Below, piece by piece: positions 52,301-55,300 of a stretch of 64,000 bases of DNA. How positions within the stretch are numbered: the stretch's first letter is position 1; every line of letters starts with the position of its first letter. The DNA is taken from the NCBI RefSeq assembly GCF_022846255.1, contig NZ_AP025682.1, one strand, 5' to 3'. The stretch comes from Escherichia coli. GTDB lineage: Bacteria > Pseudomonadota > Gammaproteobacteria > Enterobacterales > Enterobacteriaceae. Made by a program: the position numbers.

Positions 52301-55300
52301 TCCGCGCGGCTGTGCGGCAGTATATGGCTGAAGTGGAGTCCGGCGTTTACCCGGGCGAAGAACACAGTTTCCATTAAGGAGTGACGTTGTGTTAATTATC
52401 GAAACCCTGCCGCTGCTGCGTCAGCAAATTCGCCGCCTGCGTATGGAAGGTAAGCGCGTGGCGCTGGTGCCCACCATGGGTAACCTGCACGATGGCCATA
52501 TGAAGCTGGTCGACGAAGCCAAAGCCCGCGCCGATGTGGTCGTCGTCAGTATTTTCGTTAACCCGATGCAGTTTGACCGCCCGGAAGATCTGGCACGTTA
52601 TCCACGGACCTTGCAAGAGGACTGCGAAAAGCTGAACAAACGTAAAGTGGATTTAGTTTTCGCGCCTTCGGTAAAAGAGATCTACCCGAACGGTACAGAA
52701 ACCCACACCTATGTTGATGTTCCCGGTCTTTCCACCATGCTGGAAGGTGCCAGCCGTCCGGGACATTTTCGCGGCGTTTCGACTATCGTCAGCAAGCTGT
52801 TCAATCTGGTCCAGCCGGACATCGCCTGCTTCGGTGAAAAAGATTTTCAGCAACTGGCGCTGATCCGCAAAATGGTTGCCGATATGGGCTTCGATATTGA
52901 GATTGTCGGAGTGCCGATTATGCGCGCGAAAGACGGTCTGGCGCTCAGTTCCCGTAACGGCTATCTGACGGCGGAACAACGTAAAATTGCGCCGGGTCTC
53001 TACAAAGTCTTAAGTTCAATTGCCGACAAATTGCAGGCTGGCGAACGGGATCTCGATGAAATTATTGCTATTGCCGGGCAAGAACTGAATGAAAAAGGTT
53101 TCCGCTCCGATGATATTCAGATTCGCGATGCCGACACATTGCTGGAGGTCTCTGAAAACAGCAAACGCGCAGTGATTCTGGTAGCCGCCTGGCTTGGCGA
53201 TGCTCGCCTGATCGACAACAAACTGGTCGAACTGGCGTAATGCTTAACTGGCGCTACGGCTGATGGCGCCAGTTATTCATTGCCACGTTATCTGTAAGCA
53301 ATTATTCATATCGTAGACTACTTAGTTAGAGTTAATTAGCTTATCAATCTCTGCAAGAGATAAAGCTGTCACCTCTGCAACGTCTTCCCGAGACATTCCT
53401 TTACTCAGAAGACGCAGGGCGAATTCCTGACTTACTTCCTGTCTTCCCTGCTGAATCCCCTTCTCTTCAAACCACTGCGCCAGCGTCATCATAGACTCCC
53501 CTCCCGTTTCCCTGTCTCTCACCACACCATAAAACAAATCCGCTTGTTCAGTATGACCGCGTTGCAGCATATAGTTTTGCATGGCAACTAACTGACTTCC
53601 GCTAGTGTACCCTTCGTCAATCAGCGTGACCAGTTGCTCCAGCAATAACATTAAGTCGCGCTGGCGAATATGTTTTTGCAGCAGTTCGAGAATCGCAATC
53701 CGCCGATGTTGCATGATTTCGTCATCCGGTGTGATAGTGATATCCACCAGCGGGAAAGGACTGTTATAGACGCGTCGCGCCAGCTCCGGCGAGTAAAACA
53801 TATCAAACCAGCACATTGAGAGCGGATAAGGTGTGGCCTCGCCCTGATAAAACAGAATCGGCACCACCAGCGGCAGCTTATCGTGATCCGCCTCCAGATG
53901 CCGGTGCATGGCGGCAATGGCATAGCGCATCATGCGAAAGGTCATTTTCTTATCCGGCTTGCTTTGATGTTCAATCACCACATGCAAATAACCGGGATTG
54001 CCCTGCATTTGTACGGAATAGAGTACGTCCGTGCTGTGTCCTTTCAGGCTTTCCTCAATAAAACTCCCCGACTCAAGATGCAGCGTGTCGAGGTCACACA
54101 GTTCGCGTAGCTCCGCTGGCAAATGGATATCCAGAAAGTCGCGAGCCGTTTCCGCATGCATTAAAAATTGTTTAAACACCGCATCATGCGGTGTGGTACT
54201 CGGTGCATCCATCTTCCCTGCCTTCCGTGTTGTCTTGCGTGAAGGCAGTATCCAGTCAAGGTGTGCCGTCGTCAGCCGCCTCTTTAGTGTTTACCGAGCA
54301 GCGTTCAGATAAATTTCAATTGGTTACAGGCGTTACATGGCACGCTTCGGCACGGTACGCAAACTGCTGCTGCAAATGCCGTCAGATGAGTAGACACTAA
54401 ACAAAAATCGGGCAATACTGCGTGAGAATTTCCTCAAAGCAGGCATCGCCTGCTTCGTTAACGACAGGGTAGAAAGGTAGAAGTTATGATTCGCACGATG
54501 CTGCAGGGCAAACTCCACCGCGTGAAAGTGACTCATGCGGACCTGCACTATGAAGGTTCTTGCGCCATTGATCAGGATTTTCTTGACGCAGCCGGTATTC
54601 TCGAAAACGAAGCCATTGATATCTGGAATGTCACCAACGGCAAGCGTTTCTCCACCTATGCCATCGCGGCAGAACGCGGTTCGAGAATTATTTCTGTTAA
54701 CGGTGCGGCAGCCCACTGCGCCAGCGTCGGCGATATTGTCATCATCGCCAGCTTCGTTACCATGCCAGATGAAGAAGCTCGCACCTGGCGACCCAACGTC
54801 GCCTATTTTGAAGGCGACAACGAAATGAAACGTACCGCGAAAGCGATTCCGGTACAGGTTGCCTGATTGTTATCCCTGCGGCTGGTTACTCACCAGCCGC
54901 GACATCGTCTCCAGCGAATCCGTTCTTAAGATATAAAGTCGTTTTAGTAACAACGGATTATCCCCCGGTTTTACTTTGCCTTTCATGGTCGTCACCGCCA
55001 GGTGAAATCCGGCTTCTTTTGCTGCCTTCACGGCTTTGTCATTAAATCCGCCAAATGGATAAGAAAGATACAAAACATGTGGATTAAATTGCGCCAGAGC
55101 GCGGCGTGAACGTGCAAAATCAAACAGAATATTGTGCTCACTACGGCTCAGCAATATAGGCCGCCGATAACCATCTATCCGATGCAAAAAATGAGTATGT
55201 GACTGGAAATCAAATATATCGCGAATTTCGTTAAGTTCAGAAACGCTCATAAATTGCAGCGATTTTGGGTTCCATTTCTGCGGGTGACGTTTGATGCGCG

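What the first reader, a model, noticed from the sequence alone, without database searches (positions are those of the whole stretch)
53322..54212. rpnC (yadD) PD-(D/E)XK nuclease with a possible in-frame internal small ORF
Rpn proteins are transposase-like recombination-promoting nucleases. Published work on the family reports that an internal in-frame start can produce a small C-terminal protein that antagonises the full-length nuclease, with a role in phage defence. Here an in-frame Met pair (MMTLAQWFEEKGIQQGRQEVSQEFALRLLSKGMSREDVAEVTALSLAEIDKLINSN, about 53 aa, roughly 53325-53483) could encode such a product. Of the genes in this window it is the one most plausibly linked to a defence function.
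Basis: partly seen in the sequence, partly recalled or inferred. Interest (0 to 1): 0.5.

Follow-up and report, generated by a model that had tools for sequence, protein, structure and literature searches.

The report
rpnC nuclease with nested antitoxin gene
This is the E. coli rpnC gene, whose in-frame internal start makes a small antitoxin against the full-length nuclease; that arrangement was published for this gene in 2023, so the finding is correct but not new.

Summary
Window 53322-54212 (- strand) is rpnC/yadD (296 aa), lying between panC and panD. It has an in-frame ATG-ATG at 53492-53487. The small product is 56 aa (53325-53492), not about 53 aa.

The internal start is not a chance Met:
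- Its Shine-Dalgarno (GGGAGGGGAG, 53505-53496) pairs best with the 16S tail among all 494 internal in-frame ATGs of the window.
- The same SD+ATG sits at the homologous codon in 11 of 12 homologous genes examined at DNA level.
- 100 of 101 homologous proteins have Met there.
- The sequence from -29 to +31 is identical to E. coli MG1655.

Zhong et al. 2023 (PMC10400941) showed in MG1655 that RpnC_S is made, by Onc112/retapamulin ribosome profiling and SPA tagging. They also showed that it blocks RpnC-induced SOS only when the number of four-residue repeats matches.

Only the allele is specific to this window. It has one repeat fewer than K-12, and its tail is the one that 29% of E. coli genomes carry on a separate downstream rpnC_Ss gene. 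It is rare: the exact protein is recorded on 3 to 5 contigs. Phage defence has been shown only for plasmid RpnP2, not for RpnC.

The parts
53322..54212 (-). rpnC (yadD) full-length CDS, RpnC_L, 296 aa, stop included
   Evidence: ORF list and sequence. Exact protein WP_137501334.1, named RpnC. TIGR01784, 277 bits.
53592..54194 (-). N-terminal PD-(D/E)XK / Transposase_31 (YhgA-like) nuclease domain, residues 7-207
   Evidence: Pfam PF04754, E 5.6e-87. The counterparts of RpnA D11/D63/E82/Q84/R94 are D10 (54185-54183), D62 (54029-54027), E81 (53972-53970), Q83 (53966-53964) and R93. D62, E81, Q83 and R93 are invariant in 101 homologs and D10 is present in 99 of them. The mutational data for RpnA are in PMC5350276.
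53496..53505 (-). Internal Shine-Dalgarno tract GGGAGGGGAG, read in frame as Gly-Gly-Glu. GGAGG lies 7 nt before ATG1 and GGAG 6 nt before ATG2.
   Evidence: Duplex energy of -10.8 kcal/mol with the 16S 3' end, rank 1 of 494 internal in-frame ATGs. An equivalent SD is present in 11 of 12 homologous genes. The tract lies in an unpaired loop of the predicted local RNA fold, which is no more stable than shuffled sequence, z +1.58.
53487..53492 (-). Internal translation initiation site: tandem in-frame ATG ATG (M241, M242)
   Evidence: Sequence. Identical to MG1655 from -29 to +31. Met is at one of the two positions in 100 of 101 homologs. Initiation in MG1655 was shown by ribosome profiling and SPA tagging (PMC10400941).
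53322..53492 (-). rpnC_S nested ORF, 56 aa plus stop, in the same frame as rpnC_L: MMTLAQWFEEKGIQQGRQEVSQEFALRLLSKGMSREDVAEVTALSLAEIDKLINSN
   Evidence: Not annotated as a separate CDS in RefSeq records, MG1655 included, and not in the protein collection as a protein of its own. 40% identical over 45 aa to an RpnA_S-type tail, E 1e-9. The profile of C-terminal domains hits PDB 7TH0 (RpnA-S) at E 4e-9. The AF2 model is all-helical, pLDDT 76.5.
53427..53462 (-). Four-residue repeat (specificity) region, residues 251-262: KGIQ-QGRQ-EVSQ, three degenerate 12-nt units. MG1655 has one more (KGIE).
   Evidence: Alignment with MG1655 and L002. In E. coli-type alleles the variable stretch is 7, 11, 15, 19, 23, 27, 31, 39 or 43 aa, always in steps of 4. 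A 12-nt tandem array is detected in L002 but not here.
53325..53372 (-). C-terminal tail VTALSLAEIDKLINSN, residues 281-296. With the 3' flank it is of the type carried by the standalone rpnC_Ss gene in other strains.
   Evidence: DNA alignment of window, L002 and K-12-like L001. Protein comparison.
53239..53281 (.). Inverted repeat between the convergent panC and rpnC stops (16-nt arms, 11-nt loop): a likely shared terminator hairpin
   Evidence: the repeat finder pair I1. The terminator scan did not call it because it has no T run.
53604..53632 (-). Weak candidate internal promoter (TGGTCA, 17 nt spacer, TACACT) about 110 nt upstream of the internal start. It is speculative.
   Evidence: Relaxed hexamer scan, 8 of 12 matches. 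The standard scan found nothing on the - strand. The paper states that every rpn gene has an internal transcription start site but gives no coordinates in the held text.

Best explanation
The locus is an intragenic toxin-antitoxin pair of the Rpn family.

Translation from ATG 54212 gives RpnC_L. It has a PD-(D/E)XK DNA endonuclease domain followed by a small helical C-terminal domain.

A strong internal ribosome-binding site lies exactly at the junction of the two domains. Translation from ATG 53492 or 53489, in the same frame, gives RpnC_S (56 or 55 aa). RpnC_S is the C-terminal domain on its own.

By analogy with RpnA, RpnC_S dimerises through its long first helix and binds the identical domain of RpnC_L. 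RpnA forms a 2:2 complex in this way. Binding keeps the nuclease inactive.

The number of four-residue repeats in that helix sets which RpnS fits which RpnL. This allele has one repeat fewer than K-12 and a different tail. It should therefore be self-matched and probably not interchangeable with the K-12 pair.

Release of the nuclease, for example on phage infection or at alkaline pH, would damage DNA and abort infection.

Status of each step:
- Shown here: the anatomy, the strength of the SD, its conservation, the intact catalytic residues and the repeat-length pattern.
- Shown by others in MG1655: synthesis of RpnC_S and its repeat-specific antagonism of RpnC.
- Inferred: the complex geometry for RpnC, the trigger, and any phage defence by RpnC.
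For: Gene identity.

Internal RBS:
- Rank 1 of 494 internal in-frame ATGs.
- Predicted to be unstructured.
- An SD plus ATG lies at the homologous codon in E. coli alleles, paralog-type genes, Salmonella, Klebsiella, Citrobacter and metagenomic homologs, although the residues encoding it differ: GGES, KEKL, QRERI, YEETL, HKEL, QEES, KEKT.
- Met is conserved in 100 of 101 homologs.

Nuclease: catalytic D62, E81, Q83 and R93 are invariant and D10 is present in 99 of 101. They match the RpnA residues whose mutation abolishes activity (PMC5350276).

Transfer from MG1655: identical sequence from -29 to +31, where ribosome profiling, SPA tagging and the dinD-lacZ assays were done (PMC10400941).

Repeats: the variable stretch differs only in steps of 4 aa.

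Homology to the crystallised RpnA_S.
Against: - No experiment exists for this allele.
- No convincing sigma-70 promoter for a short transcript was found.
- Which of the two ATGs is used is unknown.
- Phage protection was shown only for plasmid RpnP2_LS, under particular conditions (pH 8.5 or low temperature), not for RpnC.
- RpnC overexpression had the weakest effect on recombination of the four active K-12 paralogs, 2.9-fold. Its physiological potency is therefore uncertain.
- PADLOC has no model that matches the full-length protein.
- One homolog (Pseudocitrobacter) has lost both the ATG and the SD, so the nested start is not obligatory.
Confidence: 0.85

Rival explanations
1. The Met-Met pair and the purine tract are just codons of the linker (Gly-Gly-Glu-Ser-Met-Met). 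No separate small protein is made, and the C-terminal domain acts only in cis as a dimerisation or DNA-binding module of the nuclease.
For: RefSeq annotates a single CDS, in MG1655 too. The 56-aa sequence is not recorded as a protein of its own. One homolog lacks the ATG and the SD.
Against: The SD is the strongest of 494 internal in-frame ATGs. It is kept in 11 of 12 homologous genes although the encoding residues change. The context is identical to MG1655, where the small protein was detected and initiation was mapped.
Confidence: 0.04
2. rpnC is a transposase or insertion-sequence remnant, as many annotations say ('putative transposase', 'ISNCY family transposase'). The C-terminal HTH would be its DNA-binding domain.
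For: The Pfam family is named Transposase_31. NCBIfam NF007418 'ISNCY family transposase' scores 323 bits. The C-terminal part gives weak HTH_7/resolvase-like and KorB/DeoR-like matches. Kingston et al. argue for two independent insertions between panC and panD.
Against: The gene has no terminal inverted repeats or target duplications around it, only short imperfect matches at chance level. NF007418 is far below its cut-off of 583 bits. The gene sits at a fixed chromosomal position in 5,414 of 5,426 complete E. coli genomes. Zhong et al. found no evidence of autonomous transposition.
Confidence: 0.03
3. The pair is made as described, but RpnC_S is mainly a helix-turn-helix DNA-binding regulator. 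It would act, for example, as an autorepressor, as many type II antitoxins do, rather than only as a direct protein inhibitor.
For: Pfam now calls the domain HTH_Rpn_C (PF27070). The AF2 model ends in a helix-turn-helix-like trio, and its nearest folds are DNA-binding domains of resolvase, KorB and DeoR, though none is significant (E about 1).
Against: For RpnA the small protein inhibits cleavage in vitro with purified components and forms a stable complex with RpnA_L. The fold matches are not significant. No operator-like repeat was found upstream of rpnC.
Confidence: 0.06
4. The locus is an eroded, physiologically inert relic. Both products may be made but have no defence or other function in this strain.
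For: RpnC was the weakest of the four active K-12 paralogs (2.9-fold recombination). Kingston et al. suggest the paralogs may be eroded elements. No phage phenotype is reported for RpnC.
Against: The reading frame is intact and the catalytic residues are conserved. Against MG1655, 29 codons differ synonymously and 6 non-synonymously in the first 252 codons. Repeat number varies strictly in frame across alleles, which implies continuing selection on the C-terminal domain.
Confidence: 0.1

Closest known systems
E. coli K-12 MG1655 RpnC_L / RpnC_S (b0132; Zhong et al. 2023, PMC10400941)
   Same: Same locus (panC-rpnC-panD), same domain structure, and identical SD, ATG-ATG and first 10 codons of the small protein. 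The catalytic residues are the same.
   Different: The window allele is 296 aa against 300 aa. It has one KGIE repeat fewer, so RpnC_S is 56 aa against 60 aa. Within the C-terminal domain it has Q266L, and its tail is VTALSLAEIDKLINSN instead of MANLPLAEIDKVINLI. It has 6 substitutions in the first 252 residues, five of them in the nuclease domain. Its DNA is about 92-93% identical to K-12-type alleles.
RpnA_L / RpnA_S (YhgA; crystal structure of RpnA-S, PDB 7TH0)
   Same: Paralogous nuclease with a nested antitoxin. The C-terminal domains are homologous, 40% identity over 45 aa, and the profile hit to 7TH0 has E 4e-9. The internal SD+ATG is at the equivalent codon.
   Different: Different chromosomal locus and different tail sequence. 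RpnA_S does not cross-protect against other Rpn_L proteins. In vitro nuclease inhibition and the 2:2 complex were shown for RpnA only.
Standalone rpnC_Ss (annotated 'hypothetical protein' or 'RpnC/YadD family protein'), analogous to ypaA/rpnE_Ss and to DUF4351-type genes
   Same: The last 16 residues and the 3' flank of the window's rpnC match the rpnC_Ss of strain 2016C-3878 (L002) almost base for base.
   Different: In 1,553 of 5,426 complete E. coli genomes rpnC_Ss is a separate gene downstream of rpnC. In the window no separate copy exists: only 81 nt lie between the rpnC stop and the panC stop.
Plasmid RpnP2_LS (ECOR13)
   Same: Same family and the same nested architecture.
   Different: It is the only Rpn system with demonstrated protection against phage (T-even phages and BASEL #40). 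It is plasmid-borne. It was not compared by sequence here.
Classical type II toxin-antitoxin modules
   Same: A protein antitoxin neutralises a toxic enzyme by direct binding.
   Different: The antitoxin is not a neighbouring gene. It is the toxin's own C-terminal domain, translated in frame from an internal start.

Membership tests
Rpn / YhgA-like family (PF04754, TIGR01784, COG5464) | Significant match to the Transposase_31 / Rpn family models | tested here: met
   PF04754 E 5.6e-87 over residues 7-207. TIGR01784 277 bits against a cut-off of 52.1.
Rpn / YhgA-like family (PF04754, TIGR01784, COG5464) | PD-(D/E)XK-type catalytic residues (RpnA D11, D63, E82, Q84; also R94) | tested here: met
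   D10, D62, E81, Q83 and R93 are all present. D62, E81, Q83 and R93 are invariant in 101 homologs and D10 is present in 99. The residue list comes from PMC5350276.
Rpn / YhgA-like family (PF04754, TIGR01784, COG5464) | Variable C-terminal helical domain (Pfam HTH_Rpn_C, PF27070) | tested here: inconclusive
   The Pfam release available to profile_search lacks PF27070. The precomputed hit for the exact protein is only 'faint'. Homologs carry unmarked or weak hits. Homology to RpnA_S was shown directly.
rpnC orthologue (as opposed to rpnA, B, D or E) | Position between panC and panD; named RpnC in RefSeq | tested here: met
   The RpnA equivalog model NF007361 scores 321 bits, below its cut-off of 583, so it is not RpnA.
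RpnL/RpnS intragenic toxin-antitoxin | In-frame internal start with its own ribosome-binding site at the boundary of the C-terminal domain | tested here: met
RpnL/RpnS intragenic toxin-antitoxin | The small protein is actually translated | not testable with these tools
   Shown for MG1655 rpnC by Onc112/retapamulin profiling and SPA tagging (PMC10400941). The window's initiation region is identical.
RpnL/RpnS intragenic toxin-antitoxin | RpnS neutralises the cognate RpnL (toxicity, SOS induction, nuclease activity) | not testable with these tools
   For K-12 RpnC this was shown by dinD-lacZ with repeat-number specificity. It has not been done for this allele.
RpnL/RpnS intragenic toxin-antitoxin | [quoted passage not shown] | tested here: met
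   Variable stretch of 7 to 43 aa, always in steps of 4. The window is in the 11-aa class and K-12 in the 15-aa class.
RpnL/RpnS intragenic toxin-antitoxin | Internal promoter giving a short transcript | tested here: inconclusive
   No site at the standard threshold. One weak candidate at 53632-53604. No transcription start site coordinates were available.
Anti-phage defence system | Measured protection against a phage | not testable with these tools
   Shown only for RpnP2_LS. The full-length protein has no PADLOC model match.
Insertion sequence / autonomous transposase | Terminal inverted repeats and target-site duplication around the gene | tested here: not met
   Only short imperfect repeats at chance level. 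The gene has a fixed position in nearly all E. coli genomes.

The most novel reading that the evidence does not exclude
The allele may record a cassette-like way of switching toxin-antitoxin specificity. The C-terminal domain of rpnC and the downstream standalone rpnC_Ss copy would exchange segments by unequal crossing-over or gene conversion.

The window carries an rpnC nuclease domain of one haplotype, a K-12-like repeat region minus one unit, and the tail plus 3' flank of rpnC_Ss. K-12 itself matches rpnC_Ss over the stretch encoding AQRLLSKGMSREDVAE.

If this exchange is recurrent and selected, rpnC_Ss would serve as a donor reservoir for new RpnL/RpnS specificities and not merely as a spare antitoxin. 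The data equally allow the simpler readings: the window form could be ancestral, before any duplication, or it could be a one-off deletion fusion of the kind already mentioned by Zhong et al.
Probability: 0.15. Interest if true: 0.45.

Novelty: already known. Interest (0 to 1): 0.15.

Why it matters
The nested antitoxin is a good example of a functional protein that gene annotation misses. No RefSeq record examined, MG1655 included, lists RpnC_S. The biology was published in 2023 for this very gene, so the window adds no new principle.

What the window does add is a natural variant. It has one repeat fewer than K-12 and an rpnC_Ss-type tail. It could be used to test the published rule that repeat number sets RpnL-RpnS specificity. 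It could also be used to study how alleles at this locus are reshuffled.

Tried and rejected
- **Promoter and terminator scan:** the standard scan found nothing on the - strand within rpnC. A relaxed scan gave one weak candidate, which I do not rely on.
- **PADLOC:** no match for RpnC_L. RpnC_S gave only a marginal, uninformative hit to RmrA, E 0.0017.
- **phmmer of full-length RpnC against PDB sequences:** nothing meaningful. The profile search did find RpnA-S (7TH0), but alignment A1 contains an RpnA-type tail, so that hit is partly by construction. A direct pairwise BLASTP was run to cover this. The top hits of that profile search, designer PPR and 'CAP repeat' proteins, are summed weak repeat matches and were disregarded.
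- **Foldseek of the RpnC_S model:** no significant match. 7TH0 was rank 10 at E 2.1, because the domain is very small.
- **AF2 model of full-length RpnC:** mean pLDDT 59. I judged it too poor for a fold search and used it only for the order of secondary-structure elements.
- **TRF:** no tandem repeat in the window's repeat region, because only three degenerate units remain.
- **Supplementary files of Zhong et al.:** not held, so the mapped transcription start site and the exact iTIS codon for rpnC could not be read.
- **Literature searches from 2024 on:** the only later mentions of the Rpn system seen in the searches are two occurrences in a 2025 EcoSal review (PMC12707154) and six of 'RpnA' in a 2024 synteny-software paper (PMC11044567), neither of which I opened; no new experimental follow-up was seen.
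- **Fusion-junction hypothesis:** I considered that GCCCTGCGT|CTTCTG marks a fusion junction and rejected it, because an allele without the rpnC_Ss-type tail (L012) has the same sequence.
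Full report
**What is there**

The - strand of window 53322-54212 holds an intact 296-codon ORF. On one side are panB (51583-52377) and panC (52389-53240). On the other are panD (54486-54866) and yadE (54870-56099). This is the arrangement of rpnC (yadD, b0132) in E. coli MG1655.

The protein matches Pfam Transposase_31/YhgA-like over residues 7-207 with E 5.6e-87. It matches the NCBIfam Rpn family model TIGR01784 at 277 bits against a cut-off of 52. The exact sequence is in NCBI as WP_137501334.1, 'recombination-promoting nuclease RpnC [Escherichia coli]'. 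The cluster table lists it on 3 contigs and a second look-up read 5. An E. coli draft genome (GCA_005387665.1) differs from the window by 1 base in 6,891 around the gene.

The residues corresponding to those whose mutation inactivates RpnA (D11, D63, E82, Q84, R94; PMC5350276) are D10, D62, E81, Q83 and R93 here. All are present. D62, E81, Q83 and R93 are invariant in 101 homologs and D10 is present in 99. The nuclease moiety therefore looks functional.

**The internal ORF**

ATG1 is 53492-53490 and ATG2 is 53489-53487. The nested ORF is 53325-53492 and encodes 56 aa, or 55 from ATG2.

Immediately upstream is GGGAGGGGAG (53505-53496). Its GGAGG lies 7 nt before ATG1, and a second GGAG lies 6 nt before ATG2. 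I cannot tell which ATG is used.

Three tests bear on whether this is more than chance.
- I scored the anti-SD duplex for every internal in-frame ATG in 54 putative genes of the window. The two rpnC ATGs rank first and second of 494, at -10.8 kcal/mol against a mean of -1.9 and sd of 2.2.
- The local RNA is predicted to fold no better than shuffled sequence (z +1.58), with the SD in a loop.
- I fetched DNA for homologs. These were other E. coli alleles, paralog-type genes, Salmonella, a Klebsiella-annotated genome, Citrobacter freundii and two metagenomic contigs. In all 11 first examined, a canonical SD (GGAGG, AAGGAG or GAGGAG) precedes an in-frame ATG at the homologous codon. It is the best-ranked internal site in ten. 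In Salmonella it is second, behind a G-rich repeat codon run. The amino acids that encode it differ throughout.

At the protein level, 100 of 101 homologs have Met at position 241 or 242. The one exception, from Pseudocitrobacter, has CTG and an eroded SD, so it appears to have lost the site.

**What it is, and that it is known**

Zhong et al. 2023 (PNAS; PMC10400941) describe exactly this arrangement.
- Chromosomally SPA-tagged RpnC_S and RpnC_L were detected.
- RpnS proteins act as antitoxins to the toxic RpnL nucleases.
- For RpnC specifically, RpnC_S suppressed RpnC_LS-dependent dinD-lacZ induction only when both proteins had the same number of four-residue repeats. The authors tested this by adding one KGIE.

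The window is identical to MG1655 from -29 to +31 around the internal ATG, with 3 differences in -120..+39. The published evidence therefore applies to this initiation site.

The C-terminal domain is homologous to RpnA_S, whose crystal structure is PDB 7TH0. Pairwise identity is 40% over 45 aa, E 1e-9. A profile of C-terminal domains hits 7TH0 at E 4e-9, but that profile included an RpnA-type sequence. An AF2 model of the 56-aa product is helical with moderate confidence, pLDDT 76.5. Foldseek could not discriminate such a small fold.

RefSeq records, MG1655 included, annotate only the long CDS.

**Mechanism**

RpnC_L is a PD-(D/E)XK endonuclease carrying a C-terminal oligomerisation domain. 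RpnC_S is that domain made separately. By analogy with the RpnA 2:2 complex and in vitro inhibition, RpnC_S binds the same domain in RpnC_L through the long first helix and holds the nuclease inactive. The repeat number in that helix sets the pairing specificity.

Phage protection has been demonstrated only for the plasmid paralog RpnP2_LS, and only under particular conditions. For RpnC it is an inference. In Kingston et al., RpnC was the weakest of the four active paralogs.

**What is particular to this window**

The allele is unusual.
- No complete E. coli genome of 5,426 has a match of 99% or better to the gene. K-12-type alleles are about 92-93% identical.
- Against MG1655, 29 of the 37 differences in the first 756 nt lie in nt 1-360. 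The remainder is nearly identical. This points to a recombination mosaic.
- The repeat region has one unit fewer than K-12: EEKGIQQGRQEVSQEF against EEKGIEKGIQQGRQEVSQEF.
- The last 16 residues and the 3' flank match, almost base for base, the tail and flank of the separate downstream gene rpnC_Ss in strains such as 2016C-3878. That separate gene is present in 1,553 of 5,426 genomes and absent from the window.
- Other alleles combine the same tail with different repeat arrays, for example P0016 to P0019.

Zhong et al. already note that rpnSs can be lost by deletion or by fusion to the rpn N-terminal domain. My data cannot tell whether the window form is such a fusion or the arrangement that preceded the duplication.

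Among E. coli-type alleles the variable stretch is 7, 11, 15, 19, 23, 27, 31, 39 or 43 aa, strictly in steps of four. The window is in the second-shortest class.

**Rivals**

- A chance Met with no separate product is very unlikely, given the rank of the SD, its conservation and the MG1655 experiments.
- A transposase reading fails its defining test. No terminal inverted repeats or target duplications were found, and the position is fixed in nearly all E. coli.
- A regulatory helix-turn-helix role for RpnC_S is not excluded, but it rests only on the Pfam name HTH_Rpn_C and on non-significant fold matches.
- A functionless relic is unlikely. The frame is intact and the catalytic residues are conserved. 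Codon differences from MG1655 run 29 synonymous to 6 non-synonymous. Repeat variation is strictly in frame.

**Verdict**

The phenomenon is already published for this gene. Interest is low. The only new element is a rare natural allele that could serve as a test case for repeat-number specificity and for exchange between rpnC and rpnC_Ss.

Noticed in passing
window 17750-18925 (-), codon 143 of the longest ORF: cdaR (NCBIfam NF008550) has an internal in-frame ATG preceded by GGGAGGAACTGGTG. Its anti-SD duplex is -10.3 kcal/mol, the next strongest in the window after rpnC and rseP. It could be another internal start or simply Gly/Arg/Glu codons.
   Followed up: no
window 3772-5169 (-), codon 385 of the longest ORF: rseP (NF008046) has an internal in-frame ATG preceded by AAGGGGGCTGGG, at -10.5 kcal/mol. 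This would leave an 81-aa C-terminal product if it were used.
   Followed up: no
window 11559-11645 (-) and 20481-20526 (-): The Rfam gathering-threshold hits are t44 RNA (83.5 bits) and the HtrA/degP 5' UTR thermometer (77 bits), the latter directly upstream of the ORF at 19062-20486. These are the expected core-genome RNA elements.
   Followed up: partly
window 53852-54300 compared with 53457-53851: Divergence from MG1655 is concentrated in the first 360 nt of rpnC and its upstream region (29 of 37 differences). The next 400 nt or so are almost identical. This is a sharp recombination boundary, consistent with the 'two versions of rpnC' noted by Kingston et al.
   Followed up: partly
L012 (Logan contig SRR17780879_29682), 805-1689: An rpnC-like gene whose 5' half is about 40% divergent at DNA level from the window, while its 3' half, including the repeat region, is nearly identical. 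It lies next to a DUF2496 gene rather than panD. It is either another mosaic or a different genomic context.
   Followed up: no
L004 (ENA contig ERZ1745346 NODE_4395), 601-1488: A panD-linked rpn gene with an RpnC-like N-terminal domain (65% identity) but an RpnA-type C-terminal tail. The contig has very low coverage (0.65), so a chimeric assembly cannot be excluded. If real, it would be a domain swap between paralogs.
   Followed up: no
L016 (Pseudocitrobacter cyperus GCA_039889165.1), codon 241 of the rpn gene: This is the only homolog of 101 without Met at the internal start. The codon is CTG and the upstream tract is AAAGAGAAAAAG, -2.9 kcal/mol. The nested antitoxin start has apparently been lost, which raises the question of how this nuclease is kept in check.
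   Followed up: partly
window 53239-53281: A 16-nt-arm inverted repeat lies between the convergent panC and rpnC stop codons. It is probably a shared terminator hairpin. The terminator scan did not call it because no T run follows.
   Followed up: no
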